Positions 12,537 through 47,404 are shown, numbered from the stretch's first letter. The stretch: DNA of 64,000 bases from an uncultured bacterium (GCA_937910695.1 CALEMW010000054.1:13831-77830); one strand, 5' to 3'. Notes: a model not told the origin generated them from the sequence alone. A program made the numbers and translations.

Positions 12537-12539
12537 GGC

Positions 12540-32101: not shown

Positions 32102-35100
32102 ATGATGATCACAGCATTCGCCGTTCTGGCCTTGTCTGCAGCGATCACGGCAGCCGGCGGCTCCATGACCGGCAAACCCAGAGTCGTTCCCGCCGACGAT
32201 ACCCACGTATTTGTGGCCCACGGCCCCGCCGTCGCCAAGAGCGACACCGTCACCCTGTTCGGCGGGCCCCTGCGCAACGACGGGAAGTTCCAGGACGACT
32301 TCAATCCGGCGCTGCCGGATTTCGAAGGCTGGACGGGAGTGGACATGAGGGCCGTCACCGTTTCCCGCTGGCACATCGACACCTTCAACTCCCCCACGGG
32401 CACCGCCGCCGCCTGGTGCGGCGAGATGTTCGAGAGCTGCGATGTCGATGATCCGCCCGAGGGCTACGGCAATAGCTACGAAGAGTACCTGGAATGGACC
32501 GGCCGGGTCGCGGATCCCGACCTCCCGACGAACATGACGGTGAGCTTCACGCTGAACTACGACAACGAGCCGGGGTACGACTACCTGTACCTGCAATCTC
32601 TCGGTGCCGCCGGCTGGAACGTCGTGGCCACCTACAACGGCAGCACCCTTCTCGAGGGAACGGGTTTCTTCCAACCTGTGTCGCCCGTCCTGAGCTTCAC
32701 CGTTCCGGCCTCCGATCTCGGCGGCGACGACGGCGACGAAATCCGGTTGCGGTTCCGCGCGACCTCGGACGGTGGGTGGGCCGATTCCGATTGTCTGTGG
32801 CCCACGTCCGGGCTGGCGCAGGTCGATGATGTCGCTGTGAGCGGGGACAATGGATTGGTCGCGACCTTCGACGACTTCGAGAACGGACTGGAGGGTGCGA
32901 GCTGGGCCCTGGGCTTCCCTATCGGTTACGGGAACTTCACGAAGATCTGGCCCCTGCTCGACGACCTCGATCCCTGTGTGCAGAACGATACGCCGCAGGC
33001 GGCGTTCATCGACGATGGGGTGGTGGTGCCCTGCACCGGTGGGACGTTGGGAACGTCCTGGACCTACGGCCCCGGGGGCTTCGTCGTCAACATGACCGGC
33101 GGCTGTGCAGGTCCGACGATGCACGGCTGGAACGAGATCTGGTCGCCGGCGATCGCCTGGGTGGATCCGGCGACGGGAATCGAGCTCGGCAGGACGCATC
33201 GCGGCGGCAGGTTGGAATATGGGATCTGGCCACATCTGCCGATCTCAAACGGGTGCTTCTATCTATGGCATGTTCGCTCGTCTTCCGATCATGGGATGAC
33301 ATGGACGGATTGGATGGATCGCAACTACGTCTATTACGGATCGACATCATACCAACGTGACTCGAGAGACGTCACCGATCTCGTCGTCGACAACCCGACC
33401 CATATCCAAGTGGCTCTCGGTTTCAGGGAGTTGGGGTGGATCTGGCCGATCTACCATGACCCGACCCCCGCCCCCTACTTCGACAACATCCGCTTCGACG
33501 TCTTCACCCTGACCGGTCCCACCCTCGCCGCCCAGGCCGACCTGCTCGCCCAGGACGCCTTCCCCGCCTCGGGCGTGCTCGACTTCGCCGAGCTCGCCGC
33601 CAACTCCATACGCTTCGACTGTGCCCGGGATCTCATAGAGGACGCAGCCACCGCCATCATGCCCGGCGACTCGCTTGTCTGCAGCGTCGCCTCCCATCGC
33701 CCGGGCGCCGTCCTCACCCAACCGCCCCGCCTGTACTACACCATGAAGCCGAACCCCCTGTTCGACCCCTGCCGGGAGCACCCGACGAGAGGCTGGGTCG
33801 TCGGAGACTCGGCGCGCACCGCGGCCGGCGAGGCCGTGCCCGATCTCTGGGCCTTCGACCTGCCCGACACCGGCTTCTTCTTCCCCGGCGACGTGATCCA
33901 CTACCTGTTCCACGCCGAGGACGACGTGGGCGGCGACGTCGAAGCCACGACCCTGCCCGCCTCGACCGTCGGCTTCGACGTGTTCCCCGGCGACCCCGGC
34001 TACGACCCGCTGCTCTGGCCCGCCGAGTTCACGGTGCGCGGGCTGCCGACGATGACCGGTTCCGAGCCCGGCGATCAGCCTACGGTGCTGCTGTGGGACG
34101 ACGGCGGGACGCGTCCGGACGCAGAGCGCTGGGAACCGGTCATGGCCGAGCTCGGCTACGACCTGGGCGTGCACTTCGATCTGTACCGGACCCAGGCCGC
34201 TTCGTCGGGCGTGAGCAACGGGCTGGGGTCGCGGGCGACGGTCGATCAGATCGCCGGTTACGAGACGGTCCTCTACTCCTGCGGGGATCAGGGGTCCTAC
34301 ACCCTCAACCATGTGAGCCGATACGGCGACAAGTCCGACGATCTCGGCCTGCTGGACGGCTGGTTGCCGCTGGGAGGCAATCTGCTGGTCTCGGGTGACA
34401 ACGTGGTGTACGACCTGGACAGGGGCCAGGGAGCAGCCGGCGACGCATTCGCCGCGGACTGGATCTCGGCCGCCTACATCGCCCCTGCGATCGAGGACCT
34501 CATCGATGGTCAGCTTGCACCGCTGATCATTGCCATCCCCGGCAACCCCGCCGGCCTCGCCCTGCCCTTCACCGTCTACGGCGACTGTCCCGGCCGCCGG
34601 CGCTTCAACGCCTTCGAGCCCGCAGGCGACGCGTTCGCCCTGGCGGAGTGGACCGATCCGTATGGCCAGGGCGGCGTCTATCCTTATGCCGCCGTCCTCG
34701 CCCATGAGACGGCGGGATCGCGCATCGTGACCATCGCCGCCGATCTGTCTGCCTGGATCGATCAGGACGGCGGGGCGGTGTCTCGACTCCACGCCCTCGC
34801 TTCGCTGCTCCAGTGGTTCGGGGAGCCGGTGCCGGGCGGGTCGACCGGTGTGGAGGACACACCGCGAGCGCTCGCCGCCCGCGCCTATCCGAACCCGTTC
34901 AATCCGCAGACGACGATCGTCTTCGACGTGCCGCGGCGCGGGCGGGTGTCGGTGGCCGTGTACGACGTGCGCGGACGGCTGGTGCGGCAGTTGGCGGACG
35001 GGAAGTACGAGGCTGGTTCGGCCTACGAAGCGACATGGACCGGTGACGACGACACCGGGCGATCCGTGGCGACAGGAGCCTACTTTGTCGAAGTGCGAAC

Positions 35101-35382: not shown

Positions 35383-35970
35383 ATGAAACCCGAATGGAAA
35401 CGACACGATGACACGGAGCTCGCCAGACAGGCCCTGGCCGGACGCGACGGCGCCTGGCGGGAGATCTACGACCGGACATGCCAGCCCCTCTTCAACTTCC
35501 TCTGCTACCAGACCGGCGACCGTGACCGGGCGCGGGATCTCCTGCAGGAGACCTACGTGACGGCCATGGCCCGGATCGGGGACTACCGCGGCGAGGGCCG
35601 GCTCGACGGCTGGCTGCGGACCATCGCCCTGCGCAAGTGCCTGGACTGGCGACGGCGCGCGGCGACGAGGCTGAGGAAGCTGGGGGAGCTGGCCCGCGAA
35701 CTCCCCTCGCCTCTCGAACGATCTGCGGAGGAGGACACCGTCGTGCTGGGCGACTCCTTCGAAGAGGCACTCGCCGGCCTCTCCTCGAAGCAGCGCGCGG
35801 CGCTCCTTCTCCGCGAACTCGAAGATCTCCCGTTCCGCGACGTCGCGGCGGCCCTGGGCTGCAGCGAGGCCACGGCGCGGGTTCATCACCACCGGGCGTG
35901 CCGCAACATGCGGCGGCTGCTCGGGGAGGGCGTCGCGCTCGTCCCCGACGGCACCACAGGAGGTGCTTGA
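35383..35970 (+). CDS. ECF sigma factor
   Basis: 'RDLLQETYVTAMARIGDYRGEGRLDGWLRTIALRKCLD' (region 2). 'LPFRDVAAALGCSEATARVHHHRACRNMR' (region 4). Confidence 0.8.
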   Translation: MKPEWKRHDDTELARQALAGRDGAWREIYDRTCQPLFNFLCYQTGDRDRARDLLQETYVTAMARIGDYRGEGRLDGWLRTIALRKCLDWRRRAATRLRKLGELARELPSPLERSAEEDTVVLGDSFEEALAGLSSKQRAALLLRELEDLPFRDVAAALGCSEATARVHHHRACRNMRRLLGEGVALVPDGTTGGA

Positions 35971-35971
35971 G

Positions 35972-38386
35972 ATGAAGAACCGATTCGATCCCCACCGTCA
36001 TCAGCTCGATGCGCGCGAACAGGACGCGCTCTGGCTGGAGATCCGCAACGCGGCGCGCGAGCCGCAGGCCCGACGCACCGCCTTCGCACCGGCGTTGGTC
36101 GTGTCCGCCGCCGCCGTGGCTCTCGCCCTGATCGGGGCCCTGGCCTTCTGGCCCGCCTCCGATCACGGCAACGATCCCCGGCGCAGCGCCCCCCTGGCGC
36201 AGCGCTACCAAGTGACCGAGGAGTCGGAGCCCGTGCTCCGGGACCGCGCGACCGGGCGTCCCGTGCCCGTACTCGAGGTCCTGCCGACCCCCGTGGACGA
36301 CTGCGAAGAAGCCGAGGACCCGCCCGCCCCCGCGGTCGTGCGCGGCGAGATTCGCGAAGCCTTCACCGGCGAACTCCTCGGTCACGCCGTCCTGACTTCC
36401 CTGGACGGCAGCGTCCACGCGGCGGCCGACAGCAACGGCGTGTTCCGGCTGTTCGGTGTGACGCCCGATCAGCCGCTGTCACTACACCTGAGTCGTTTGG
36501 GGTACACGCCCATCGACACCGTCCTGACGGCGGCGCCCGGGGAAACCCTCGTGGTGGCGCTGGTGATGGAGGCGATGATCGTGGCGCAGCTCGACGCCAT
36601 CGATGTGGAGGGCGATCGGTACATGGTCGATGTGAAGTCGACCGTCCGGGAGCAGTCGATCGACTCGTCGCGGCTGAGCAAGTACGCCATCGATTCGGTG
36701 GAGGACGCCATCGCCAAGCAGGCCGGAGCTCGTCCCAGTGGGAATCAACCGTACATGCTGGGTGGCGGCACCATGAATGTTGTCGAAGGAATCGACGGAT
36801 CCGCCCTGCAATCCCGTAGCATCCAGGTCGCTCGCAGGAAGCCGCGTCCGGGCGACGAAAACATCGCCGACACCCTGCTGTCCAGCGACGAGATGTTATC
36901 ATTTTCTAACTCCGTCACCGGCGGCACCACCCCGCCCAACGGCGAGCCCTACGAGCTCATGTACTTCCACCACGCCGGCGTGAACCCCTTCGTCACGACC
37001 GACGAGGACAACCTGAGCACCTTCGCCGTCGACGTGGACGACGCCTCCTACACCCTGGCGCGAAGCTACATCGAGAACGGCCATCTGCCGCCGCAGGACG
37101 CGGTGCGGGTGGAGGAGTTCGTCAACGTCTTCGACGGCGACTGGCCCGAGCACCGCGGCGAGGATCTGCGGATCCACGCCGACGGCGCGCCCTCCCGCTT
37201 CGGTGACGGCTATCACCTGCTGCGAGTCGGCCTGAGGGCACGCACCGTGGGCGCCATGGACCGTAAACCGGCCTTGCTGATCTTCGTGATCGACGTGTCG
37301 GGCTCCATGCGGGCCGGCAACCGCCTGGGCCTGGTCAAGGAGGCCCTGCTGACCCTGGTCGACGATCTCCACGAAGACGACCAGGTCGGACTGGTGATCT
37401 ACGGCAGTATCGGACAGGTGGTGCTCGAACCCACCGGGCCGGAGGACCACAGCCGCCTGCGCAAAGCCATCGCCTCGCTGCAGACCGGCGGCAGCACCAA
37501 CGCCCACGAGGGCCTGAAGCTGGCCTACGACATGGCGCGTGACCACTACGAAGCCGGCCACATCCACCGTTTGATCCTCTGCTCCGATGGGGTGGCGAAC
37601 AACGGCCTGACCGTTGCCGATCAGATTCTCGACGACGTGCGCCGCGAATCGGACCGCGGCATCCAGCTGACGACCGTCGGCTTCGGCATGGGCAACTACA
37701 ACGACGTGCTGATGGAGAAGCTCGCTGACACCGGCGACGGCACCTACCACTACGTGGACGATCTCGACGCCGCCCGCAACGTGTTCCGGCAGAACCTCAC
37801 CGGCCTGCTGCAGACCGTGGCCCGCGACGCCAAGATCCAGGTGGAATTCGACCCCGCACGGGTGCTGCGCTGGCGGCTGCTGGGCTACGAGAACCGCGAC
37901 GTCGCCGACCGTGATTTCCGCAACGACGACATCGACGCAGGCGAGGTCGGTTCGGCCCACGTCGTGACCGCTCTGTACGAAGTCAAACTGGCCGACGATG
38001 TGGTCGAGGCCATGGGCCGCAGCCTGGCCTGGGGCGCGAGCGCCGAGCTCGCCGTGGCCAGGGCGCGTTGGGAAGTGCCGGCTCACGACACCGAGCGGGC
38101 GGGCGAGGTGACGGAGATCGAGCAGAAGATCACCGCCGCCGACGTGGGCCGCAGCTTCGGGGCGGCCCGATCGGGGCTGCGGCTGCAGGCCGTGGCCGCC
38201 GAGTTCGCCGAGATCCTGCGCGGCAGCTTCTGGGCCCGCGAGAGCTCGCTGGCGGATCTGGTGCCGGTAGCGGACGCCACGGCGGCTGGACGCGACGGTG
38301 ATGGGGCGGCATCCGAGCTGGTCGACCTGATCAGGCGAGCGGCTGATCTTGCAGGCGACGGAGCGAAAGAAGGCCGGACCCGCTGA
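35972..38386 (+). CDS. Membrane anti-sigma factor fused to periplasmic carboxypeptidase-regulatory-like, vWA N-terminal, von Willebrand factor A (MIDAS) and DUF3520-like domains (YfbK-like sensor)
   Basis: Start 2 nt after the sigma stop. TM 'ALVVSAAAVALALIGALAFW'. vWA 'LLIFVIDVSGSMRAGNRLGLVKEAL...QTGGSTNAHEGL...LCSDGVANNG'. Confidence 0.7.
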   Translation: MKNRFDPHRHQLDAREQDALWLEIRNAAREPQARRTAFAPALVVSAAAVALALIGALAFWPASDHGNDPRRSAPLAQRYQVTEESEPVLRDRATGRPVPVLEVLPTPVDDCEEAEDPPAPAVVRGEIREAFTGELLGHAVLTSLDGSVHAAADSNGVFRLFGVTPDQPLSLHLSRLGYTPIDTVLTAAPGETLVVALVMEAMIVAQLDAIDVEGDRYMVDVKSTVREQSIDSSRLSKYAIDSVEDAIAKQAGARPSGNQPYMLGGGTMNVVEGIDGSALQSRSIQVARRKPRPGDENIADTLLSSDEMLSFSNSVTGGTTPPNGEPYELMYFHHAGVNPFVTTDEDNLSTFAVDVDDASYTLARSYIENGHLPPQDAVRVEEFVNVFDGDWPEHRGEDLRIHADGAPSRFGDGYHLLRVGLRARTVGAMDRKPALLIFVIDVSGSMRAGNRLGLVKEALLTLVDDLHEDDQVGLVIYGSIGQVVLEPTGPEDHSRLRKAIASLQTGGSTNAHEGLKLAYDMARDHYEAGHIHRLILCSDGVANNGLTVADQILDDVRRESDRGIQLTTVGFGMGNYNDVLMEKLADTGDGTYHYVDDLDAARNVFRQNLTGLLQTVARDAKIQVEFDPARVLRWRLLGYENRDVADRDFRNDDIDAGEVGSAHVVTALYEVKLADDVVEAMGRSLAWGASAELAVARARWEVPAHDTERAGEVTEIEQKITAADVGRSFGAARSGLRLQAVAAEFAEILRGSFWARESSLADLVPVADATAAGRDGDGAASELVDLIRRAADLAGDGAKEGRTR

Positions 38387-38407
38387 ACCCGGCGGCGGAT
38401 CCGGTGC

Positions 38408-38439
38408 GACGGCCGGCGGTTCGGCGACCGCCGGCCGTC
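38408..38439. terminator. Perfect 12-bp GC hairpin between convergent genes (no U-tract)
   Basis: 'GACGGCCGGCGG ttcggcga CCGCCGGCCGTC'. Confidence 0.35.
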
Positions 38440-38478
38440 GGCGTGTGCTCAGTGAGCCGGAAAATCATATCATGCCCA

Positions 38479-39516
38479 TCAAATGAGACCGGTCTTGCCC
38501 GTGACCCCGCGCTCCAGGTCCAGCAGGAACCTCTTGCGCCAGAGCCCGCCTCCGTAACCGGTCAGCGACCCGTCGGTGCCGATGACGCGGTGGCAGGGCA
38601 CGATGATGGCGATCCTGTTGTCGCCGTTGGCCCGGGCCACCGCACGCACGGCGTTGGGATTTCCCACGGCCACGGCCTGCTCGCGATAGCTCCGCGTCTG
38701 TCCGTAGGGAATGCTCCGGAGCTGTTCCCACGTCATCCGCTGAAAGTCCGTACCCGGCATCACCAGGGGTAGGTCGAACCGACGGCGCGTCCCCGCAAAG
38801 TACTCCCCGAGCTGGGCATCGAGGTTGTCGAAGTGCTCGTTGCGGCCAGGCATGAACTCGGCTCCGAGCAGCTTCCGCAATCTCGTGATCTGGGTCTCGA
38901 GCATCCTGCGGTCCGTGAATTCCAACAGACAGATGCCGTCGTCGGTCGCACCGGCAAAGAGAGGGCCAAGGGGCGAGAGGATCCGCGTAACGATCACGAC
39001 ATTCTGCTGCGCGCTTCGCGACGGCACGAAGCCGGTGGCCTTCTTGAAGGCTTCATTGAATCCACTCAGGGAGTCATAGCCAATGTCGAAGGCCGAATCG
39101 ATCACCTTGCCGGCGTGCCGTATCCGACCGAATGCTTCATTCAGGCGGCGTGAACGCAGGTAAGCCTGGAACGTCATTCCATGATGTTTTTTGAACCAAC
39201 GGCGTATCCGCGCCGGATCGATCCCACGTGCACGCAGATCGGCATCTTTGAGCCTCAGGGACGGATCACGATCAACCTCGGCGAGAAGCGGCTTCAGCCA
39301 GGCAGGGGGCTGACCGTACAACTCCATGGGATGACATGATTTGCAGGGCCTGTAGCCCAATGCCAACGCCTCCTTGACGTTTGCGAAATACTCCGTGTTT
39401 TCCAGGTTGGGTTTGCGGGCGGGGCAGGTCGGTCGGCAGAAAATGCCGGTGGTCTTGACCCCCACGACGAAAATCCCCTCGAACGACGGATCTCGGTCCA
39501 CAAGGGCGCGGTACAT
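38479..39516 (-). CDS. ada: Bifunctional Ada: Zn-Cys4 methylphosphotriester-repair domain + AraC-type HTH + O6-methylguanine-DNA methyltransferase
   Basis: 'FCRPTCPARKP...YRPCKSCHP' Cys4. AraC HTH. 'IVPCHRVIG' MGMT active site. The ORF extension upstream of ATG 39516 is AT-rich non-coding. Confidence 0.85.
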   Translation of the reverse strand: MYRALVDRDPSFEGIFVVGVKTTGIFCRPTCPARKPNLENTEYFANVKEALALGYRPCKSCHPMELYGQPPAWLKPLLAEVDRDPSLRLKDADLRARGIDPARIRRWFKKHHGMTFQAYLRSRRLNEAFGRIRHAGKVIDSAFDIGYDSLSGFNEAFKKATGFVPSRSAQQNVVIVTRILSPLGPLFAGATDDGICLLEFTDRRMLETQITRLRKLLGAEFMPGRNEHFDNLDAQLGEYFAGTRRRFDLPLVMPGTDFQRMTWEQLRSIPYGQTRSYREQAVAVGNPNAVRAVARANGDNRIAIIVPCHRVIGTDGSLTGYGGGLWRKRFLLDLERGVTGKTGLI

Positions 39517-39894: not shown

Positions 39895-42800
39895 ATGAAA
39901 CGCACTCTTGTGATGGTCACCCTGATTTTCGCTACCCTATGCGCCTCGATGGCATCGGGCGCGACGCAGGCCATCCCCCTGCAGGCCGAACGCACGGCCC
40001 TCGACCTGGTCGACACCCGTGGCGACGCCCTCCAGTTCCGCGTGAACATCGCCGAGCTGCAGGCCATGGACGTGACCACGTCCGCCGGCGATTTCTCCCG
40101 GATCGTCATCCCCGGGTTCCACAACTCGATGATCGACGGCAGCCCCGAGCTGCCCATGATGAATCGGTTGTTGGAACTTCCTTTCGGCGCCAATGCGCGC
40201 GTCGAAGTGGTTTCGGCATCGCGGCGCGTGGTGCGATTGGCCGACCACGGCATCACCACACCGCTGATGCCCCACCAGCCCAGCGTCTCCAAGAGCGCCG
40301 ACCTGGACAATCTGCCCTTCATTTACGACCGGGCCGCCTATGCCGGCACCGTGGCGCGTGAACTGGTGCGGGTCGTCGAGCTGGGTCAGCTGCGTTCCCG
40401 CGGGCTCGTCCGTTGCGAGATTTCCCCGGTGGAGTACCTGCCTGAAAGCGGCGAGCTGATCATCCACGACCAGATCGAATTCCGCGTCATATTCGACGGC
40501 GTCGACCGCGCCGGCGAGGCCGACATGCTGGCCCGAACCTGGAGCCCCTTCTTCTCGCCCCTGTTCACCAACGTTGCAGGATCGCGGGCGAACCACTTCG
40601 ACTTCCCCGACCTCGTCAAGAACCCCGTGACGATGGTCGTCGTGACCCCGCCCGAGTTCCAGTACGTGTTGACCGACTTCGTCAACTGGAAGACCGAGCG
40701 CGGCTTCAACATGATCATGGGCGTGACCGGCACCCCCGAAGTGGGCGCCACCGCCGCCTCGATCCAGTCCTACCTGCACGGCCTCTACAACGCCGCCACG
40801 CCCGAGCTGCCGGCCCCGAGCTTCGTGCTCTTCGTCGGCGACGTGGCTCAGATGCCCACGTTCACCGAGGGCGGCGACGCCACCGACCGTCCCTACTGCG
40901 CGGTCGACGGCGACCTCTATCCGGACATGTACTACGGCCGCTTCTCGTGCACCAACGTGAGCCAACTCCAGGCTCAACTCGACAAGACGATGATGTACGA
41001 CCAGTTCACGATGCCCGACCCCAGCTACCTGGGCAACGTGACGATGATCGCCGGCGTCGACGGGAGCTTCGCCCCGACCCACGGCAACGGCCAGATCAAC
41101 TACGGCACCGAGCACTACTTCAACGCCGCCCACGGCATCAACAGCTACACGTACCTGTATCCCGCTTCGGACGCCGCCGGCGCTCCGGCCGAGATCGTGG
41201 CGCATGCGAGCGAGGGCGTTGGCTTCATCAACTACACCGCCCACGGCAGCCAGACAAGCTGGTCCGACCCCGCCTTCACCCAGACGAACATCAACAGTCT
41301 GACGAACACCGGGAAGTATTTCCTGGCCATCGGCAACTGCTGCCTGACCTCGACCTACGACTACGGCGAGTGCTTCGGCGAGACCTTCCTGCGCGCCGCG
41401 GGTAAGGGCGCCGTGGGTTACATCGGCGGCTCCAACTCGACCTACTGGGACGAGGACTACTGGTGGGGCGTGGGCTTCCACGCCAGCTCGCAGATCGACG
41501 GCTCGGCCTATCCCGTCGAGAGCACGGGCATCGGCGTGTACGACGGCATCTTCCACGACCACGGCGAGGCTCCCGCCCAGCAGTACGTGACCAACGACGC
41601 CGTCGTGTTCTGCGGCAACATGACCGTCACCGAATCCGGATCCAGCCGTGAGACCTACTACTGGAACATCTACAACCTGTTGGGAGACCCTTCCCTGTCG
41701 ACCTACATGGGCGTGCCGACGACCAACCCCGTCAGCCATCAGCCCGTGTTCACGAACTCCCCGGACCTCGTCATCGACGCGGCCCCGGGCAGCTACGTGG
41801 GTCTGACCCAGGGCGGCGTCATCTTCGCCGCCGGCACGATCCCCGCGGGCGGCCGTCTGGCCCTGCCCATCAACGGCGTGCTCACCCCGGGCACGGCCAA
41901 GCTGGTCGTCACTGCCCAGAACCGTGAGCCCTATGTCGAGGTCGTTCCGGTCATCGTGCCGGCGACCGTGCTGATCGACCCCGCGGCCATCGACGCCAAC
42001 GTCGCCACCGACGTGACCGTCACGGTCTACGGCGAGGACGGCGTGACCCCCGTGGTCGGCCTGAGCGTCTGGGCCGAGGGCCTGGGCTATGCCACCGCGC
42101 CGGTGCTGACCGACGCCCTGGGCGTGGCCGTGCTTAACGTGACCTACCCCTACGGTCCGACCGTGGACATCGTGGGCCGCAACATGGCCGACCCGTACGA
42201 GCTCTTCCGCGAGCCCCTGACGGTCAACGCCTTGGCCCTGGCTTCACCCGATCTGTCGGTTTCGACCGGCATCGGCATGGCCGACATGTTCCCGCTGAAC
42301 CTGCCCGCCGACCTGAACGCCACGGTCGCCGAGCCCGGGTTCACGCTGCACGCCTTCCTGCCCGACGGCAGTGAGCTGACCACCGGCGCCGCGTCGATGA
42401 GCATCACCGCCGGCGACTTGGGCCTTGTGACCGGCGTGATCGCGGTCAGCGGCTACGACATCTACACCGAGTCCTTCGACGTCATCGAAGCCTTCGGCAC
42501 CATGACGGGCGTCGTGACTGCCGGCGGCGGCGGCGCGGCCGGTGCGGTCGTGCGTCTGATCGACGGCGGCGGCATCGAAGCCTACAGCGCGACCTGCGAC
42601 GGCGCGGGCGCCTACGACTTCGGCGGCGACATCCTGGTCGCCAACTACGACGTCGTGATCGACTACTTCGGCTATCTGCACTATGAGATGCCGTACTTCG
42701 TGAACTTCGGCGCCAACGTCTACGACATCGCGTTGACGGCGGCCCCGAGCGGCGTACTCACCGGTACGCTGAGCGATTCGGTCACCGGCGAGCTGCTCGA

Positions 42801-44673
42801 GGGCGGCATCGTGCGCGTGTTCCGTCATGACACAGGCACGCTCTACACCGAGGCCGTGAGCGACGTCGCCGGCACGTTCACGACCACGGCACTGCCCTAC
42901 TTCAACTACGACATCATGGTGCGTGCCTACCATCACGTGCCGGTGATCATCACCCTTGAAGTCGCCGACCCGGTCGTCACCAAGGACTTCGTCCTCGAGC
43001 CGACCAACGGCGACCTGCTGATCATCGACGACAACGGCGCTGCGGCGGCCAAGGCCGACAAGTTCGACGAGAAGGGCAACTTCCTCGCGGCCGGTTATAT
43101 GAGCGAGGCTCCCAAAACGGCCGCCCAGATGGCCAGCACGCTGGAGCTCGTCGGCTACAGTGTGACCGTCGAGACTTCAGGTACGACGGACCCGTCGTCC
43201 TGGTCGATGTACGACCTGGTCATCGTGTCCTGCGCCGACAACACGTCGGCCCTGCCCGACGCCGTTATCCGCAATGCGTTGATCAACTATGTCGACGCCG
43301 GCGGCAAGCTGCTGCTCGAAGGCGGCGAAGTCGGCTACAACCATTACGGCAGCGGTGCCTTCGCCGAGCGCGTCATGCACTCGACGGACTGGAACCACGA
43401 CGCCAGCGGCAACTTCGTCATCGCGGAGCCCACGCACCCGGTGATGAGCGTGCCCAACGCGGTCGAGGACAACTCACCGGTCACCTACAACGGCTACGGA
43501 GACCAGGACGCCATGGCGCCCCTGGGCGACGCCGTGATGGTCGGTACTTGGGCCACCTACCCGACCGACGCCAGCGTGATCTGCTACGATCCGAACCCGG
43601 CGCCCGAGGGCGGTCAGATCGTCTTCATGTGCTTCAACTACGGCGCTCTGCCCGGCAGCTGCGCCACGGGCATTCTCGAGAACGCAGTGAACTGGCTGCT
43701 GGTGCTCGAGGCCGGCACTTCGTCGGTGACCGGTCAGGTCCTGCTGTCCGGTGAAACGAACCATGCGGGCATCCTCGTCGAGGCCGTGCCCGGCGGCGGT
43801 TCCACCTTCACGGCGACCGACGGTACGTACACCCTGCCCGGCCTGTTCGCCGGCGAGTACACGATCCGCGCTTCGAAGTCCGGATGGGGAACACAGGCCC
43901 AGGCTGTTTCTCTTGCCGAGGGACAGGCTACGACGGTGGATCTGGTGCTCACACCGGTCCTGGAGTTCGACGGCTGCAACCAGCCCGCGCTGGCGATTCC
44001 TGATAACAGCCCGGCCGGTGTGTCCGACGTGATGACCGTCGATCTGGGCTACGGCGCTTCGACGACCGTATCGGAGATCTCGGTCTTCGTTGACGTGACC
44101 CACACCTGGCAGGGCGACCTTCTCGTCACCCTGACCTCGCCCATGGGCACGAGCGTCGTGCTGCACAACCGCACCGGCAGCAGCGCCGACAACATCTACG
44201 GCTGGTACCCGACCGAACTGGTTCCCGCAGGCGACCTCGGCGTGTTCGCCGGGCAACTGACCAACGGCGACTGGACCCTGTCGATCAGCGACAACGCCGG
44301 CGCCGACACCGGCTCGTTGAACGAGTGGTGCCTGCACATGGTCTTCAGCGGCGTGGTGACCAACGAGGGCGAACCTGGCGACAGCGCCGTTCCGTCGGTC
44401 TACAAGCTCCACTCCAACTACCCGAACCCATTCAACCCCATGACCAACGTCAAGTTCGAGCTGTCCCGCCCGGGCCTGACCAAGGTCAGCGTGTACGATG
44501 TGAGCGGCCGTCTGATCAAGACGCTCGTGAACGAAGACCTGCCGGCTTCGGTCTACACCGTGACCTGGGACGGCACCAACAGCCGCGGCCAGCGCGTGGC
44601 CAGCGGCACGTACTACCTCCGCCTGGTCTCCGATGACTTCCAGGCGGTTCACAAGATGACGATGCTGAAGTAG
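39895..44673 (+). CDS. Gingipain-like cysteine peptidase (family C25) with propeptide, multiple Ig-like/CarboxypepD_reg-like domains, a proprotein-convertase P-domain and a T9SS type-A C-terminal sorting domain (1592 aa)
   Basis: RBS GAAAGGAAGG. Signal peptide. Catalytic His 'INYTAHGSQTSWSDPAF' and Cys 'FLAIGNCCLTSTYDYGECFGETF' (RgpB-like). P-domain 'VTHTWQGDLLVTLTSPMGTSVVLHNRTG'. C-terminus 'YPNPFNPMTNVKFELSRPGLTKVSVYDVSGRLIKTL'. Confidence 0.85.
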   Translation: MKRTLVMVTLIFATLCASMASGATQAIPLQAERTALDLVDTRGDALQFRVNIAELQAMDVTTSAGDFSRIVIPGFHNSMIDGSPELPMMNRLLELPFGANARVEVVSASRRVVRLADHGITTPLMPHQPSVSKSADLDNLPFIYDRAAYAGTVARELVRVVELGQLRSRGLVRCEISPVEYLPESGELIIHDQIEFRVIFDGVDRAGEADMLARTWSPFFSPLFTNVAGSRANHFDFPDLVKNPVTMVVVTPPEFQYVLTDFVNWKTERGFNMIMGVTGTPEVGATAASIQSYLHGLYNAATPELPAPSFVLFVGDVAQMPTFTEGGDATDRPYCAVDGDLYPDMYYGRFSCTNVSQLQAQLDKTMMYDQFTMPDPSYLGNVTMIAGVDGSFAPTHGNGQINYGTEHYFNAAHGINSYTYLYPASDAAGAPAEIVAHASEGVGFINYTAHGSQTSWSDPAFTQTNINSLTNTGKYFLAIGNCCLTSTYDYGECFGETFLRAAGKGAVGYIGGSNSTYWDEDYWWGVGFHASSQIDGSAYPVESTGIGVYDGIFHDHGEAPAQQYVTNDAVVFCGNMTVTESGSSRETYYWNIYNLLGDPSLSTYMGVPTTNPVSHQPVFTNSPDLVIDAAPGSYVGLTQGGVIFAAGTIPAGGRLALPINGVLTPGTAKLVVTAQNREPYVEVVPVIVPATVLIDPAAIDANVATDVTVTVYGEDGVTPVVGLSVWAEGLGYATAPVLTDALGVAVLNVTYPYGPTVDIVGRNMADPYELFREPLTVNALALASPDLSVSTGIGMADMFPLNLPADLNATVAEPGFTLHAFLPDGSELTTGAASMSITAGDLGLVTGVIAVSGYDIYTESFDVIEAFGTMTGVVTAGGGGAAGAVVRLIDGGGIEAYSATCDGAGAYDFGGDILVANYDVVIDYFGYLHYEMPYFVNFGANVYDIALTAAPSGVLTGTLSDSVTGELLEGGIVRVFRHDTGTLYTEAVSDVAGTFTTTALPYFNYDIMVRAYHHVPVIITLEVADPVVTKDFVLEPTNGDLLIIDDNGAAAAKADKFDEKGNFLAAGYMSEAPKTAAQMASTLELVGYSVTVETSGTTDPSSWSMYDLVIVSCADNTSALPDAVIRNALINYVDAGGKLLLEGGEVGYNHYGSGAFAERVMHSTDWNHDASGNFVIAEPTHPVMSVPNAVEDNSPVTYNGYGDQDAMAPLGDAVMVGTWATYPTDASVICYDPNPAPEGGQIVFMCFNYGALPGSCATGILENAVNWLLVLEAGTSSVTGQVLLSGETNHAGILVEAVPGGGSTFTATDGTYTLPGLFAGEYTIRASKSGWGTQAQAVSLAEGQATTVDLVLTPVLEFDGCNQPALAIPDNSPAGVSDVMTVDLGYGASTTVSEISVFVDVTHTWQGDLLVTLTSPMGTSVVLHNRTGSSADNIYGWYPTELVPAGDLGVFAGQLTNGDWTLSISDNAGADTGSLNEWCLHMVFSGVVTNEGEPGDSAVPSVYKLHSNYPNPFNPMTNVKFELSRPGLTKVSVYDVSGRLIKTLVNEDLPASVYTVTWDGTNSRGQRVASGTYYLRLVSDDFQAVHKMTMLK

Positions 44674-44688: not shown

Positions 44689-44715
44689 AAAGGGGTCCGG
44701 CTGCGGCCGGGCCCC
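44689..44715 (+). terminator. Hairpin terminator after the gingipain-like gene
   Basis: 'GGGGTCCGGC tgc GCCGGGCCCC' followed by TTTCCCTTTG. Confidence 0.5.
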
Positions 44716-44842
44716 TTTCCCTTTGCCCCTGGTATTGCTTTATCATTCTGCAAAAATACGTTAGAATGATAGGGTACTGATGGACTGGATTCCGCGTCCT
44801 CCCGCCGCGACGCCGTCACAGCACACCCGATCCCAAGGATGG

Positions 44843-47404
44843 ATGCACATGCCCACCGTTCGCCACACGGGCTTGATCTTCGCTATTTGCCTGATCTGCC
44901 TCGGCGCCGCCGCAACGGCCGTTTCCGCCTACGAAGCACCCCTGGACCACAACGGCCTGCCCCAGTGGGTCGAGAAAGTCTGGACCGACGCCCCGATCCG
45001 CCTCGAACTGCGCGATCACGCGGAGCTGCAGCAGCTGCTCGCCGCCGTGCCCATCGCAGCGTTCAACCGCGAGGATGTGGGCTTTTCCGGCGATGTGAAG
45101 AACCGCACCCTGGTGCTGCGGACCCGCGTCACCGAAGCCGAGTTCGCCGCCCTGACCGCCGCCGGCTGGAGTCCCGAGCGCGTGCGCGACCTCGATCGCG
45201 AGGGTCGCGAAGCCGCCGAACAGGTGTGGCGCGATATGGCCGAGGGCAAGGCCGTGGGCGACAAGACTTATCCCTACAACTACTACCCGACCCACGCGGA
45301 GATCGGCACCATCCTGGCCGCCGTCGAGACCGCCCACCCCGCCATCGCGCGGGACTTCCAGTGGGGCTCGTCGGTGCAGGGCCGCGCGTTGTGGGGCATC
45401 GTCATTTCCGACAACGTGAACGTGAACGAGGCCGAGCCGGAAATCCGATTCTCGTCGACCATGCACGGCGACGAAGTCACGGGAATGATCTTGATGCTGG
45501 ATCTGGCCGAATACCTGACGACGAACTATGGCGTCGCCGGCTACGAGGACGTCACCTACCTGGTCGACAACTACGAAATCCATCTCATGCCCGACCACAA
45601 CCCCGACGGTACGGCGGCCGGTCAGCGTTACAACGCCCACAGCATCGACCTGAACCGCAACTACCTGCTGCCCCAGGGCACTGACACGGTGCTCGAGCTC
45701 GAGAACCAGAACATGATCAACTACTCCACCGGGCAGCACTTCGTGATCAGCTTGAACTTCCACGGCGGCGCCCTGGTAGCGAACTACCCGTGGGACTGGA
45801 CCTACACCCTGTCCGACGACAACCCGGCGCTGATCAAGATGAGCCTGGAGTACTCCACCTACAACTCGCCCATGTACAACGGCTCGTTCCCCCAGGGCAT
45901 CACCAACGGGGCCGACTGGTACGTCGTGTACGGGTCGCACCAGGACTGGAGCTACGACCAGACCGACTGCATCGACGTGACCCTCGAAGTGTCCAACACC
46001 AAGTGGCCCTCGGCCGGCACGCTGGTGGGCTTCTGGAACGACAACCGCGAGAGCCTGATGCACTACGCCAAGTCCGCCCGCTACGGCGTCAACGGCATCG
46101 TGACCGGTTCCGATACCGGACTGCCCCTCGACGCCACCGTGACGGTGACCGGCAACTCCATGGAAGTGCACACCGATCCCGAGAACGGCGACTACTACAA
46201 GCTGCTCGACACCGGCACCTACGCCCTCACCTTCGAAGCCTACGGCTACATCACACAGACGATCACCGGCGTGTCCACCGTGTGGGGCACCCCGACGGTG
46301 CTCGACGTGGTGCTCGATCCGGTGGCGACCGGCGCCGTGGACGGCTTCGTGTACGAGCAGGGCGGCGCGCCCATCGCGGCCCGCGTCGACGCCTACACCC
46401 ACCCGCTGAATGTGTTCATCAACACGGCCTACAGCGCCGCCGGCGACGGTTCGTACAGCCTGCCCAACCTGGTGTACGGCGACTACAAGCTGGTCTACAG
46501 CGCCGCCGACCACGCCACCGTGGAGCAGGTCGTGACGGTGGATGCCTCCTCGGTGACCGCCCCCGACGTGACTCTTGGCCTGACCATGCCGATCACGCCC
46601 TTCGCCACCAATTTCGATGGTCAGCTGACCGACGGCTGGACCGGTGCCTGGGGCATCCAGACAGGCGGCGCCGACGGCACTGCGTACTCCATGAGCGACA
46701 GCCCCGGCGGCAACTACGCGGCCAACACGAACTCGGCCTGTACCATGGATGCGGGCGTGGATCTGAGCACCATGGACGCGGGAAGCGTGAGCTTCTGGGC
46801 AAGGTGGGACATCGAGGCCAACTGGGACGGCGTCTCGTTCGAAGTGTCCACCAACGGCGGCGGTGCGTGGACCAAACTGGCCACGACCTACACCCAGGCA
46901 GGCAGCGGTCAGGGTGCCCAGCAATCCGGACAACCCTACTTCGAGGGCAGCCAGGCCGCCTGGGTCTTCAACGAGGTCGACCTCGCCCCCTGGCTCGGCC
47001 TGGCGGATGTGCGCTTCCGCTTCGTGCTGGGATCCGACGGTTCTGTGCAGAAGGACGGCTTCACCTTCGATGAATTCATGATCGACGGCGTAGGCGCGAT
47101 CGTGACGGGCGCCGACAATATTCCGGTCGCAGTCCGGCTCGACGGCGTGAGCCCGAACCCGTTCAACCCCTCGACGAACGTGCGATTCACCCTGGCCCGC
47201 GACGGCCTGGCCCGCGTCGACGTCTTCGACGTGACCGGACGCCTGGTGCGAACCCTCGTTGACGGACGCTTGCCGGCGGGCGACCATGCTGTGACCTGGA
47301 ACGGCCGCAACGACGACGGTTCTCAGACCGCCAGCGGTCTTTACTTCGTGCGTCTGCGGAGCGGCGGCGTGAGCGAGACGGCGAAGGCGCTGCTCGTCAA
47401 GTAA
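44843..47404 (+). CDS. Secreted M14 zinc carboxypeptidase (M14B-like) with transthyretin-like regulatory domain, MAM/LamG-like domain and T9SS type-A C-terminal sorting domain
   Basis: Signal peptide. Zn ligands 'STMHGDEVTG' (HxxE) and 'LNFHGGALVANYPWD'. 'DLNRNY'. C-terminus 'VSPNPFNPSTNVRFTLARDGLARVDVFDVTGRLVRTL'. Confidence 0.8.
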   Translation: MHMPTVRHTGLIFAICLICLGAAATAVSAYEAPLDHNGLPQWVEKVWTDAPIRLELRDHAELQQLLAAVPIAAFNREDVGFSGDVKNRTLVLRTRVTEAEFAALTAAGWSPERVRDLDREGREAAEQVWRDMAEGKAVGDKTYPYNYYPTHAEIGTILAAVETAHPAIARDFQWGSSVQGRALWGIVISDNVNVNEAEPEIRFSSTMHGDEVTGMILMLDLAEYLTTNYGVAGYEDVTYLVDNYEIHLMPDHNPDGTAAGQRYNAHSIDLNRNYLLPQGTDTVLELENQNMINYSTGQHFVISLNFHGGALVANYPWDWTYTLSDDNPALIKMSLEYSTYNSPMYNGSFPQGITNGADWYVVYGSHQDWSYDQTDCIDVTLEVSNTKWPSAGTLVGFWNDNRESLMHYAKSARYGVNGIVTGSDTGLPLDATVTVTGNSMEVHTDPENGDYYKLLDTGTYALTFEAYGYITQTITGVSTVWGTPTVLDVVLDPVATGAVDGFVYEQGGAPIAARVDAYTHPLNVFINTAYSAAGDGSYSLPNLVYGDYKLVYSAADHATVEQVVTVDASSVTAPDVTLGLTMPITPFATNFDGQLTDGWTGAWGIQTGGADGTAYSMSDSPGGNYAANTNSACTMDAGVDLSTMDAGSVSFWARWDIEANWDGVSFEVSTNGGGAWTKLATTYTQAGSGQGAQQSGQPYFEGSQAAWVFNEVDLAPWLGLADVRFRFVLGSDGSVQKDGFTFDEFMIDGVGAIVTGADNIPVAVRLDGVSPNPFNPSTNVRFTLARDGLARVDVFDVTGRLVRTLVDGRLPAGDHAVTWNGRNDDGSQTASGLYFVRLRSGGVSETAKALLVK

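What the first reader, a model, noticed from the sequence alone, without database searches (positions are those of the whole stretch)
32102..47404. Cluster of T9SS-type C-terminal-domain cargo genes including a gingipain-like C25 protease and an M14 carboxypeptidase
Three consecutive large secreted proteins (32102..35143 unknown function, 39895..44673 gingipain-like with P-domain, 44843..47404 M14 carboxypeptidase) and one more at 5767..7419 all end in the same ~80-aa 'YPNPFNP...VYDVSGRLV...TWDG...G..V.SGVYF' sorting domain. The gingipain catalytic His/Cys contexts match RgpB closely. No T9SS machinery genes are in the window. The gingipain/M14 tandem suggests coordinated extracellular protein degradation.
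Basis: partly seen in the sequence, partly recalled or inferred. Interest (0 to 1): 0.5.

Follow-up and report, generated by a model that had tools for sequence, protein, structure and literature searches.

The report
Secreted protease gene pair; candidate selenoprotein
An uncultured freshwater bacterium carries several genes for exported proteins, including a conserved pair (a lysine-cutting gingipain-like protease followed by a trimming carboxypeptidase), which is ordinary, but one further exported protein has a conserved in-frame UGA that most likely encodes selenocysteine, which is unusual.

Summary
The four genes are real and all end in one about 85-aa domain. That domain passes the T9SS type A sorting-domain model TIGR04183 in all four. 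The three large genes are not consecutive: an ECF sigma factor, a VWA protein and Ada lie between the first and second.

The C25 protein is much closer to Lys-gingipain Kgp (E 1.8e-86) than to RgpB (E 2e-30). It keeps the Kgp triad, the lysine-binding Asp516 and the Kgp propeptide loop. The M14 protein belongs to the carboxypeptidase D / N/E subfamily and has the Asp207/Gln255 signature for basic C-termini.

C25 followed by M14 is a conserved gene pair in about 10 of 14 related species. It parallels Kgp plus CPG70 in Porphyromonas. The 32102 protein is not syntenic and looks non-catalytic: jelly-roll domains plus a ThuA/GATase1-like domain.

T9SS machinery could not be checked. It is absent from the window and 6-10 kb beyond each end.

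Unexpected result: the fourth gene (5767-7419, minus strand) is split by a TGA in the motif C-V-G-[TGA]. All 30 homologous loci examined carry TGA, coding sequence is conserved on both sides, and covarying hairpins follow. It is a probable new selenoprotein family.

The parts
32102..35143 (+). 1013-aa secreted protein of unknown function. It has a signal peptide, several beta jelly-roll (MAM/CBM-like) domains (about aa 25-640), a ThuA/GATase1-like alpha/beta domain (about aa 645-910) and a C-terminal sorting domain (aa 929-1013).
35383..39549 (.). Intervening genes that are not part of the cargo set: ECF sigma factor (35383-35970 +), VWA/YfbK_C protein (35972-38386 +) and Ada/Ogt methyltransferase (38479-39549 -).
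   Evidence: None is found next to C25 homologues in 80 related loci.
39895..44673 (+). 1592-aa Kgp-type C25 cysteine peptidase zymogen. Layout: signal peptide; propeptide (aa 47-224); catalytic plus Ig-like domain (aa 235-686); Ig-like and CarboxypepD_reg repeats; a probable GATase1-like module (about aa 1100-1267); a further CarboxypepD_reg repeat (aa 1277-1353); P-domain (aa 1393-1481); C-terminal sorting domain (aa 1509-1592).
   Evidence: Pfam. Kgp 4rbm E 1.8e-86, Kgp propeptide 5mun E 1.3e-27; conserved residues; propeptide loop; weak profile match of the middle module to the 32102 family, E 3.8e-4, probability 36%.
40597..41952 (+). C25 catalytic plus IgSF region. Asp389/His450/Cys483 correspond to the Kgp triad Asp388/His444/Cys477. 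The S1 residues Thr448, Asn481, Cys482, Trp518 and Asp521 correspond to Kgp Thr442, Asn475, Cys476, Trp513 and Asp516.
   Evidence: 39% identity over 438 aligned positions; these residues are invariant in 23 homologues; residue roles, PMC6426963. RgpB Asp163 aligns with Asn402.
44849..47404 (+). 851-aa M14 metallocarboxypeptidase of the N/E (carboxypeptidase D-like) subfamily. Layout: signal peptide; N-terminal extension; catalytic domain; transthyretin-like domain; InhA-like MAM domain; C-terminal sorting domain. It starts 175 bp after the C25 stop, on the same strand.
   Evidence: Pfam; duck CPD-II 1h8l E 2.8e-57; His69, Glu72, Arg127, Asn144, Arg145, His196, Asp207, Tyr248, Gln255 and Glu270 are all conserved. 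Asp207/Gln255 specify basic C-termini; conserved position downstream of C25.
5767..7419 (-). 550-residue read-through ORF for a beta-propeller protein (SBBP / delta-60-like repeats). It has a signal peptide and a C-terminal sorting domain, and is interrupted by one in-frame TGA. Candidate selenoprotein.
   Evidence: the same split is seen in at least 8 assemblies; about 45 homologues are all called as truncated proteins..
7072..7074 (-). Conserved in-frame TGA in the context Gly-Cys-Val-Gly-[TGA]-Gly-His-Gly-Asp-Asp, a CxxU-type motif. Predicted selenocysteine codon.
   Evidence: same position and context in 5 species; 30 of 30 true homologues carry TGA and none carries TGC or TGT. TGA is the ordinary stop of 19 of 32 well-supported genes in the window.
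7010..7054 (-). Two conserved RNA hairpins immediately downstream of the TGA, a SECIS-like element. Hairpin 1 spans 7032-7054; its apical loop (YGAARNU) begins 25 nt after the UGA. Hairpin 2 spans 7010-7030 with loop AGGUU.
   Evidence: RNAalifold on 28 sequences; 96.9% of cells paired, 6 pairs with compensatory changes, 0 of 500 shuffles reach this, and slid controls reach at most 57% paired; fold z-score -3.15.

Best explanation
**Source organism (inferred).** The window comes from an uncultured, GC-rich freshwater bacterium. Its closest relatives are annotated Krumholzibacteria or Eisenbacteria, candidate phyla commonly grouped with the FCB superphylum (my knowledge; the NCBI lineage shows no such grouping). 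It encodes many exported proteins that carry a T9SS type A-like C-terminal sorting domain.

**The conserved unit (shown).** Inside the flagged region the only conserved unit is a two-gene module.
- The first gene is a Kgp-type C25 cysteine endopeptidase. It is made as a zymogen whose propeptide loop presents an invariant lysine, and its S1 pocket keeps the lysine-binding aspartate.
- The second gene is an M14 N/E-subfamily carboxypeptidase. Its S1' pocket has the Asp207/Gln255 pair that selects C-terminal Lys or Arg.

**Proposed mechanism (inferred).** Both proteins cross the inner membrane through Sec, using their signal peptides. They are then exported and possibly surface-anchored through their C-terminal domains. 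The endopeptidase cuts proteins after lysine. The carboxypeptidase removes the newly exposed C-terminal basic residue. This would serve protein scavenging, the maturation of surface proteins, or both. It parallels Kgp/Rgp with carboxypeptidase CPG70 in Porphyromonas gingivalis.

**Status of each step.** The enzyme identities and active-site residues are shown. The gene-pair conservation is shown. Export by a T9SS and the sequential action of the two enzymes are inferred.

**The 32102 protein.** It is a separate cargo protein from a large, tandemly expanded family. It has no recognisable catalytic site and is most likely a surface binding protein.

**The fourth cargo gene (5767-7419).** It is most likely translated through its TGA as selenocysteine.
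For: **C25 peptidase**
- Kgp is the best solved match: 294 bits against 108 bits for RgpB.
- The triad and the S1 residues are conserved and invariant in 23 homologues. Their roles in Kgp come from PMC6426963.
- RgpB's arginine-binding Asp163 aligns with Asn.
- The propeptide matches the Kgp propeptide at E 4.7e-29. The loop LMPHQPS(V/M)SKS is conserved and Lys133 is invariant.

**M14 carboxypeptidase**
- The best solved match is duck carboxypeptidase D domain II. All zinc, catalytic and S1' residues are conserved.
- The Asp207/Gln255 pair determines specificity for basic residues (PMC5683605).

**Gene pair**
- An M14 orthologue of 46-66% identity, full length including MAM and C-terminal domain, lies directly downstream on the same strand in L007, L014, L015, L016, L030, L033, L034, L035, L036 and L041, and 2.5 kb away in L013.
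- That is about 10 of 14 assessable long-form C25 loci, against 1 of 9 short-form paralogues.

**Precedent**
- CPG70 is itself a T9SS cargo and trims C-terminal Arg/Lys during gingipain processing (PMC5445135).

**C-terminal domains**
- TIGR04183 is above its cutoff for all four proteins.
- A family profile matches the C-terminal domains of PorU (E 3e-4) and PorZ (E 1.6e-3).
Against: - No T9SS component was seen in the window or within 6-10 kb beyond each end. The rest of the genome could not be searched. No paper in the library links Krumholzibacteria or Eisenbacteria to a T9SS.
- The C-terminal domains score as well or better against FlgD Ig-like models. FlgD structures match at E 2e-9, against 3e-4 for PorU. 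PF18962 is below its cutoff for three of the four proteins.
- The C25-M14 pairing is absent from about a third of the long-form loci.
- No transcript evidence exists. A weak promoter-like site lies between the two genes.
- Substrate specificities are predicted from residues only.
Confidence: 0.7

Rival explanations
1. The C-terminal domains are generic FlgD-type Ig domains used for surface display or folding. These proteins would then not be T9SS substrates, and the organism may have no T9SS.
For: FlgD_ig scores exceed PF18962 for the C25 and M14 proteins, and PF18962 is below its cutoff for three of the four. The family profile hits FlgD structures at E 2e-9, better than PorU or PorZ. No machinery gene was seen in about 80 kb. 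No literature was found for a T9SS in this lineage.
Against: TIGR04183 passes its curated cutoff in all four proteins. The FlgD match covers only profile positions 22-77, whereas the PorU and PorZ matches start at positions 4-5 and include the N-terminal PNPFNP motif, ending at positions 73-76. The domain is always at the extreme C-terminus, after a signal-peptide-bearing multidomain protein, and ends in K-x-x-L-x-K/R. Homologues are annotated by NCBI as T9SS type A sorting domain proteins. T9SSs may also be present in several non-Bacteroidota FCB phyla.
Confidence: 0.2
2. The C25 protein is the T9SS sortase (a PorU-type housekeeping component) rather than a degradative cargo protease.
For: PorU is also a C25-family protein that keeps its C-terminal domain. 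NCBIfam lists weak matches to the PorU and PorU2 models.
Against: The PorU model scores 58.9 bits against a cutoff of 420, and its best-scoring stretch is the C-terminal domain. PorU2 scores 38.6 against 450. Similarity to Kgp is far higher, and the protein has the Kgp-type propeptide and lysine pocket. Long and short forms of this C25 family both occur among relatives, and one MAG contributes two C25 loci (L026 and L039), which is atypical for a single housekeeping sortase.
Confidence: 0.05
3. All genes from 32102 to 47404 form one co-regulated proteolysis locus. The ECF sigma factor and VWA protein would control it, and the 32102 protein would be a third, unrecognised hydrolase.
For: The genes lie close together and mostly on the same strand. 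ECF sigma factor SigP regulates T9SS component genes in P. gingivalis (abstract of PMC7712824).
Against: Neither the 32102 protein, the sigma factor, the VWA protein nor Ada occurs near C25 in any of 80 related loci. In other genomes the 32102 family forms its own tandem arrays of 3-5 paralogues. Its model shows only jelly-roll and ThuA-like folds. I saw no HExxH motif in the sequence, and no conserved Cys at the GATase nucleophile position in the family consensus.
Confidence: 0.1
4. The TGA in 5767-7419 is a simple nonsense mutation or pseudogene. Alternatively, the locus is two separate genes: a small secreted peptide and a cytoplasmic propeller.
For: Gene callers split it into 115-aa and 398-aa ORFs. 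No Rfam SECIS model matches. No tRNA-Sec or Sec-machinery gene was seen in the DNA held. No Cys-containing orthologue was found.
Against: The TGA is at the identical codon in 30 of 30 homologous loci, whose upstream and downstream parts are 30-81% and 36-73% identical to the window protein. Both parts are conserved as protein and lie exactly 3 nt apart. There is no conserved start codon after the TGA, and the downstream part starts in the middle of a propeller blade without a signal peptide. A Cys sits three residues before the TGA, giving a CxxU motif. Covarying hairpins follow.
Confidence: 0.15

Closest known systems
Lys-gingipain Kgp of Porphyromonas gingivalis (MEROPS family C25; PDB 4RBM, 6I9A; propeptide 5MUN)
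   Same: It shares the signal peptide, a long inhibitory propeptide with the conserved lysine loop, a caspase-like catalytic domain, an Ig-like domain and a C-terminal sorting domain. Asp388/His444/Cys477 and the S1 residues Thr442, Asn475, Cys476, Trp513 and Asp516 are all conserved. Identity is 39% over 438 aligned positions.
   Different: No haemagglutinin/adhesin (cleaved adhesin, DUF2436) domains were detected. It carries instead Ig-like and CarboxypepD_reg repeats, a probable GATase1-like module and a proprotein-convertase P-domain. The host is an environmental non-Bacteroidota bacterium. Trp391 is replaced by Phe and Ala451 by Ser.
CPG70 (PG0232) of P. gingivalis, and animal carboxypeptidase D domain II (M14 N/E subfamily; PDB 1H8L)
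   Same: It is an M14 catalytic domain followed by a transthyretin-like domain. The zinc ligands, the catalytic residues and the Asp207/Gln255 basic-specificity pair are conserved. Like CPG70 it carries a T9SS-type C-terminal domain and accompanies a gingipain-type endopeptidase.
   Different: It carries an InhA-like MAM domain. No PKD domain was detected, whereas CPG70 has PKD domains according to the title of Chen et al. 2002 as cited. Here it is encoded directly downstream of the endopeptidase gene in many genomes. To my knowledge cpg70 is not adjacent to kgp in P. gingivalis. Direct similarity to CPG70 was not measured.
T9SS type A C-terminal sorting domains (TIGR04183 / PF18962), for example those of RgpB, PorU and PorZ
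   Same: It is an about 85-aa C-terminal beta-sandwich-type domain with a PNPFNP start, a G-x-Y motif and a K-x-x-L-x-K/R end. It is above the TIGR04183 cutoff. The profile matches the PorU and PorZ C-terminal domains.
   Different: It is closer in sequence to FlgD Ig-like domains than the Bacteroidota domains are. The secretion machinery has not been observed in this genome.
Bacterial selenoproteins with CxxU / UxxC redox motifs and a SECIS hairpin after the UGA (for example the SelW-like and AhpD-like families)
   Same: It has a conserved in-frame UGA, a Cys three residues upstream, coding conservation on both sides and a conserved stem-loop. The apical loop starts 25 nt after the UGA and contains G.
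   Different: The fold is a beta-propeller with a signal peptide and a T9SS-type C-terminal domain, not a thioredoxin-like fold. No Cys-containing orthologue was found. No such family is among the 58 listed in the GOS selenoproteome survey. The element has two hairpins and matches no Rfam model.

Membership tests
Peptidase family C25, gingipain K type | Catalytic Cys/His (Kgp Cys477, His444) with third member Asp388 | tested here: met
   Cys483, His450 and Asp389 align to them and are invariant in 23 homologues. Their roles are taken from PMC6426963.
Peptidase family C25, gingipain K type | Lysine-specific S1 pocket: Asp516 salt bridge, with Thr442, Asn475, Trp513 and Cys476 | tested here: met
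   Asp521, Thr448, Asn481, Trp518 and Cys482 are conserved. RgpB's Asp163 position is Asn. Activity itself was not tested.
Peptidase family C25, gingipain K type | N-terminal inhibitory propeptide homologous to the Kgp propeptide | tested here: met
   Propeptide_C25 scores E 1.1e-13. PDB 5mun matches at E 4.7e-29 with the loop LMPHQPSxSKS conserved. Lys133 is invariant. That this Lys (Kgp Lys129) enters the S1 pocket is my recollection of the 5MUN study and was not verified here.
Peptidase family C25, gingipain K type | Haemagglutinin/adhesin domains between the Ig-like domain and the C-terminal domain (as in Kgp and RgpA) | tested here: not met
   No cleaved-adhesin or DUF2436 hits. CarboxypepD_reg and P_proprotein are found instead. 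RgpB also lacks these domains, so this does not exclude C25 membership.
T9SS sortase PorU | Score above the NF033707 (or PorU2 NF052324) cutoff | tested here: not met
   58.9 bits against 420, and 38.6 against 450.
Peptidase family M14, N/E (carboxypeptidase D-like) subfamily | Zinc ligands His69/Glu72/His196 and catalytic Arg127, Arg145 and Glu270 | tested here: met
   All align in the match to 1h8l. The residue list comes from PMC5683605.
Peptidase family M14, N/E (carboxypeptidase D-like) subfamily | Asp at position 207 and Gln at 255 (basic C-terminal specificity), with a transthyretin-like domain after the catalytic domain | tested here: met
   YPWD and HQDW align with YPFD and MQDW of CPD-II. 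CarboxypepD_reg covers aa 416-491. PDB 5aq0 matches at E 1.1e-6.
T9SS type A cargo | C-terminal domain above the curated model cutoff | tested here: met
   TIGR04183 scores 31.0, 33.6, 27.1 and 26.4 against a cutoff of 23. PF18962 is above its cutoff of 27 for only one of the four.
T9SS type A cargo | N-terminal Sec signal peptide | tested here: met
   Hydrophobic N-termini are read directly from the translations. No dedicated predictor was run.
T9SS type A cargo | T9SS machinery (PorV, SprA/Sov, PorK/L/M/N, PorU) encoded in the same genome | not testable with these tools
   None is in the window or within 6-10 kb beyond each end. The remainder of the 188-kb scaffold and of the genome could not be read.
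Bacterial selenoprotein | In-frame UGA conserved across orthologues, with coding conservation on both sides | tested here: met
   30 of 30 loci carry TGA. The upstream part is 30-81% identical and the downstream part 36-73% identical, with exactly 3 nt between them. 21 complete read-through ORFs were recovered.
Bacterial selenoprotein | SECIS stem-loop shortly downstream of the UGA | tested here: inconclusive
   Two hairpins have covariation: 6 compensatory pairs, and 0 of 500 shuffles reach the observed values. The loop of hairpin 1 starts 25 nt after the UGA and contains G. No Rfam SECIS model matches, and binding by SelB is untested.
Bacterial selenoprotein | Cys-containing homologues at the Sec position | tested here: not met
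   No TGC or TGT was found among true homologues. All 16 co-linear cluster representatives in the 1.84-billion-protein library are truncated at the UGA. Some accepted families also have no Cys homologues (Table 2).
Bacterial selenoprotein | selA, selB, selC and selD present in the genome | not testable with these tools
   No tRNA-Sec was found in 44 loci.

The most novel reading that the evidence does not exclude
The beta-propeller gene at 5767-7419 (minus strand), one of the four cargo genes in the finding, would found a previously undescribed selenoprotein family. It would be a Sec-signal-peptide, T9SS-type-domain-bearing and therefore extracytoplasmic or surface protein. Selenocysteine would sit in a Cys-Val-Gly-Sec loop, decoded with the help of a two-hairpin element in the coding sequence. 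In the closer relatives the gene sits beside multihaem cytochrome c / cytochrome b genes. This suggests an extracellular selenol-thiol redox function.
Probability: 0.7. Interest if true: 0.7.

Novelty: new member of a known kind. Interest (0 to 1): 0.45.

Why it matters
**The cluster itself is ordinary.** It consists of T9SS-type cargo peptidases in an uncultured FCB-lineage bacterium.

Two points go beyond that.

**1. The gingipain pairing is not confined to oral pathogens.** Kgp-type lysine endopeptidases, complete with the Kgp propeptide and S1 pocket, are widespread in environmental candidate phyla. Homologues come from MAGs annotated as Krumholzibacteria, Eisenbacteria, Latescibacterota, Zixibacteria and Cloacimonadota. 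They are frequently hard-wired to a basic carboxypeptidase as a gene pair. The gingipain/CPG70 division of labour known from a human pathogen may therefore be an old, general protein-scavenging module.

**2. A probable new selenoprotein family.** If confirmed, the UGA-containing propeller would be a selenoprotein family missed by gene callers. Every database entry seen for it is truncated. It would be a rare case of a selenoprotein predicted to be exported to the cell surface. It is directly testable by proteomics or 75Se labelling.

Tried and rejected
- **Finding the organism's genome.** No species representative closer than 68% identity exists for the C25 protein in the genome collection. 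Contig walking beyond the window is blocked, because only window proteins can be looked up. The reach was 10 kb beyond the left end and about 6 kb beyond the right end, and no T9SS genes appeared.
- **Literature.** Searches for a T9SS or gingipains in Krumholzibacteria and Eisenbacteria found nothing.
- **PorU reading of the C25 protein.** Rejected on model scores.
- **One large operon.** Rejected for lack of synteny.
- **Promoter and terminator scan.** Uninformative: 5 promoter-like sites against 1.9 expected, and fewer terminator-like sites than in shuffles.
- **Sequence searches for the 32102 protein.** Pfam, NCBIfam and PDB sequence searches gave only the C-terminal domain. Whole-chain Foldseek gave only low-TM domain matches.
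- **Shared module in 32102 and C25.** Only weakly supported: BLASTP E 0.09 and hhalign probability 36%.
- **Rfam and tRNA scans.** Rfam gave nothing at gathering or relaxed thresholds. The tRNA scan found no tRNA-Sec.
- **Other read-through candidates.** A scan of the window for further TGA read-through cases found only antisense-frame artefacts.
- **Veith et al. 2004.** The paper (PMC415657) is not held.
Full report
**1. What is in the sequence**

The window is 57-69% GC in 2-kb windows. It matches a 188-kb scaffold from a lake metagenome, ENA ERZ23486368, and the same genes recur in several independent assemblies.

ORFs are present at the stated positions:
- 32102-35143(+), 1013 aa. The gene caller starts it at 32105.
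- 39895-44673(+), 1592 aa.
- 44843/44849-47404(+), 853 or 851 aa.

The three are not consecutive. Between the first and second lie an ECF sigma factor (35383-35970), a VWA/YfbK_C protein (35972-38386) and, on the other strand, an Ada/Ogt gene (38479-39549).

The fourth gene, 5767-7419, is on the minus strand. It is interrupted by an in-frame TGA at 7072-7074.

**2. The shared C-terminal domain**

- The last about 90 residues of the four proteins align without difficulty at 31-48% pairwise identity.
- A profile built from them finds exactly these four ORFs in the six-frame translation.
- All four exceed the curated cutoff of the T9SS type A sorting-domain model TIGR04183: 31.0, 33.6, 27.1 and 26.4 bits against 23. 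They also give weak matches to the C-terminal ends of the PorU, PorZ and T9SS-dependent peptidase models.
- Pfam PF18962 passes its cutoff only for the 32102 protein. FlgD_ig scores higher for the C25 and M14 proteins.
- A 30-sequence profile of this domain hits FlgD structures best (E 2e-9), but only over its central part. It also hits the C-terminal domains of PorU (E 3e-4) and PorZ (E 1.6e-3), starting at profile positions 4-5.

The resemblance to FlgD is nevertheless real.

**3. T9SS machinery**

Pfam scans of about 45 window ORFs found none. The gene tables for 10 kb beyond the left end and about 6 kb beyond the right end contain none either.

The flank beyond the right end does hold two more proteins with this C-terminal domain, one of them an M43/reprolysin-like metallopeptidase. 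Cargo genes are therefore dense here, six in about 80 kb. Three within 15 kb is not a special cluster.

The rest of the genome could not be read. [quoted passage not shown] I found nothing specific to Krumholzibacteria or Eisenbacteria.

**4. The C25 protein**

Pfam gives Propeptide_C25, Peptidase_C25 (E 8.6e-56), the C25 Ig-like domain, three CarboxypepD_reg repeats, a proprotein-convertase P-domain (E 3e-17) and the C-terminal domain.

Against solved structures:
- The best match is Lys-gingipain Kgp (4rbm, E 1.8e-86, 294 bits).
- RgpB scores E 2e-30, 108 bits.
- The N-terminus matches the Kgp propeptide (5mun).

Identity to Kgp is 39% over 438 aligned positions. Kgp Asp388, Thr442, His444, Gly445, Asn475, Cys476, Cys477, Tyr512, Trp513 and Asp516 are all conserved, and they are invariant or nearly so in 23 homologues. 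In Kgp, Cys477/His444/Asp388 form the triad. The substrate lysine is held by a salt bridge to Asp516 and by Asn475 and Thr442, between Trp513, Ala451 and Cys476 (PMC6426963).

RgpB's Asp163, in its S1 region, aligns with Asn in the window protein.

The propeptide loop LMPHQPSVSKSAD is almost identical to LMPHQPSMSKSDD in Kgp, and its Lys is invariant. From memory, this Lys (Kgp Lys129) occupies the S1 pocket in the zymogen. I could not verify that in the library.

The enzyme is therefore a Kgp-type, probably lysine-specific, zymogen. It is not a PorU sortase: NF033707 scores 58.9 bits against a cutoff of 420.

**5. The M14 protein**

The best solved match is duck carboxypeptidase D domain II (E 2.8e-57). 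The alignment conserves His69, Glu72, Arg127, Asn144, Arg145, His196, Asp207, Tyr248, Gln255 and Glu270 in CPA numbering.

Asp207 and Gln255 are the residues that give carboxypeptidase D its specificity for C-terminal basic residues (PMC5683605).

A transthyretin-like domain, an InhA-like MAM domain and the C-terminal sorting domain follow.

**6. Is the tandem meaningful?**

A scan of one genome per species returned 80 C25 loci. The best identity was 67-68%, so this species itself is not represented.

- An M14 orthologue of 46-66% identity, full length, lies directly downstream on the same strand (gaps 113-987 bp) in ten loci, and 2.5 kb away in one.
- That is about 10 of 14 assessable loci carrying the long-form C25 (about 1440-1590 aa).
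- Only 1 of 9 loci carrying short-form paralogues has it.
- None of the other genes of the flagged region is syntenic with C25.

The predicted specificities fit a sequential mechanism: cleavage after Lys, then removal of the new C-terminal Lys. There is direct precedent in P. gingivalis. There, the T9SS cargo carboxypeptidase CPG70 trims C-terminal Arg/Lys during gingipain processing (PMC5445135).

**7. The 32102 protein**

- It belongs to a family of more than 500 proteins of about 1000 aa. The only Pfam hit is the C-terminal domain. Members are mostly annotated Krumholzibacteria.
- In relatives the family forms tandem arrays of three to five paralogues.
- An AlphaFold model built from a 63-sequence alignment is confident: pLDDT 88, pTM 0.75.
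- I saw no HExxH motif in the sequence, and no conserved nucleophile Cys in the family consensus.
- A weak profile match (E 3.8e-4, probability 36%) links its alpha/beta domain to residues about 1100-1267 of the C25 protein.

My best guess is a non-catalytic surface binding protein. This is inference.

**8. The interrupted fourth gene**

The same 115-aa plus 398-aa split is called in at least eight independent assemblies.

About 45 homologues of 34-99% identity are all annotated as 375-432-aa proteins. They begin just after the stop, in mid-blade, with no signal peptide.

In four other species a 114-117-aa ORF with a signal peptide precedes them. Reading through gives 549-557-aa ORFs with a single TGA at the same codon, in the context G-C-V-G-[TGA]-G-H/E-G-D-D.

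A metagenome DNA-pattern scan that left the third base of that codon free returned 39 loci.
- All 30 true homologues in the set examined (the scan hits plus the window and four loci fetched earlier) have TGA, and none has TGC or TGT.
- The 14 TGY matches are unrelated sequence.

Further points:
- The upstream part (30-81% identity) and the downstream part (36-73%) are both conserved as protein and lie exactly 3 nt apart.
- 21 complete read-through ORFs have a signal peptide and a C-terminal sorting domain.
- TGA is the normal stop of 19 of 32 well-supported genes in the window, so the genetic code is standard.
- The codon that some callers use as a start after the TGA is not conserved: GCG, GTG, CTG, CAC, CGC or CAT.
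- In the 1.84-billion-protein library, all 16 co-linear cluster representatives are truncated at this point. No full-length Cys form was seen.

**9. RNA structure after the UGA**

RNAalifold on 28 sequences predicts two hairpins.
- One spans alignment columns 36-58. Its apical loop starts 25 nt after the UGA.
- The other spans columns 60-80, with loop AGGUU.

On the named structure, 96.9% of cells pair and six pairs show compensatory changes in 28 cells. For example, pair 37-57 is G-C in 14 sequences, A-U in 11, G-U in 3 and mismatched in none. No shuffle out of 500 reaches these values, and slid controls give at most 57% pairing.

Caveats:
- The sequences are related.
- The region also encodes a conserved peptide.
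- The 5' part of the alignment (columns 7-32, which do not include the hairpins) was fixed by the search pattern.
- No Rfam SECIS model matches, and no tRNA-Sec was seen in the DNA held.

The GOS selenoproteome survey lists 58 families, none of them a beta-propeller. I conclude that this is probably a new selenoprotein family with a CxxU motif.

In the closer relatives the gene sits next to multihaem cytochrome c and cytochrome b genes. In three more distant loci it sits near a C25 gene.

**10. Verdict**

The flagged region contains new members of known kinds: a Kgp-type C25 peptidase, an M14 N/E carboxypeptidase and T9SS-type cargo. One unit is genuinely conserved, the C25-M14 pair. Export by a T9SS remains inferred.

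The most interesting item is outside the stated coordinates but inside the finding: the UGA-containing propeller gene.

Noticed in passing
window 5767-7419 (-), TGA at 7072-7074, hairpins 7010-7054: The fourth cargo gene has an in-frame TGA in a C-V-G-[TGA] motif. The TGA is conserved in 30 of 30 homologous loci, coding sequence is conserved on both sides, and covarying hairpins lie downstream. It is a probable new selenoprotein family, and all database entries seen for it are truncated at the UGA.
   Followed up: yes
window 7742-8281 (+) and 8357-10342 (-); L097-L099, L117, L118, L123, L128, L135: A c554-like multihaem cytochrome and a fused multihaem cytochrome c / cytochrome b561-like protein lie next to the candidate selenoprotein gene. 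The arrangement is conserved in the closer relatives, together with DUF4097, an anti-sigma factor, an ECF sigma factor, LppM and an S49 peptidase on the other side.
   Followed up: partly
L095 1-13018 and L096 10001-19228: Homologues of the 32102 protein form tandem arrays of five and three paralogues of about 1000 aa in other genomes. In L096 the array sits next to an M6 (InhA-like) peptidase that carries the same C-terminal domain.
   Followed up: partly
L100, L120, L124: In three more distant relatives the UGA-containing propeller gene lies within a few kb of a long-form C25 gingipain-like gene.
   Followed up: no
window 16834-18690 (+), 18687-20999 (+), 62017-63999 (+, runs off the end): There are two adjacent caspase-domain (Peptidase_C14) genes. 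At the right edge is a TPR protein that, in the longer contig, is a 966-aa TPR-CHAT protein.
   Followed up: no
L094 2-4485 (just beyond the right end of the window): There are two more genes with the same C-terminal domain: an 817-aa protein with no other domain, and an M43/reprolysin-like metallopeptidase with fn3 and Big_1 domains.
   Followed up: partly
L093 1-4480 (5-10 kb beyond the left end of the window): A nitrous-oxide reductase cluster is present: a nos_propeller/cupredoxin protein, NosD, cytochrome c and an ABC ATPase.
   Followed up: no
window 35383-38386 (+): An ECF sigma factor is followed directly by an 804-aa protein with CarboxypepD_reg, vWF_A/VWA and YfbK_C domains. This may be a sigma / anti-sigma-like pair.
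   Followed up: no
window 47481-49955 (+): A fused MFS transporter / spermidine synthase gene (NF037959) lies directly downstream of the M14 gene. It is not syntenic with C25-M14 in other genomes.
   Followed up: partly
window 50648-51076 (-): A 142-aa ORF with an ACR_tran hit is probably a remnant of an RND transporter gene. An intact RND efflux operon lies at 22752-28515.
   Followed up: no
window 11409-14887 (-): An operon encodes a Na+-translocating decarboxylase (OAD beta, biotin carrier, OAD gamma, carboxyltransferase).
   Followed up: no
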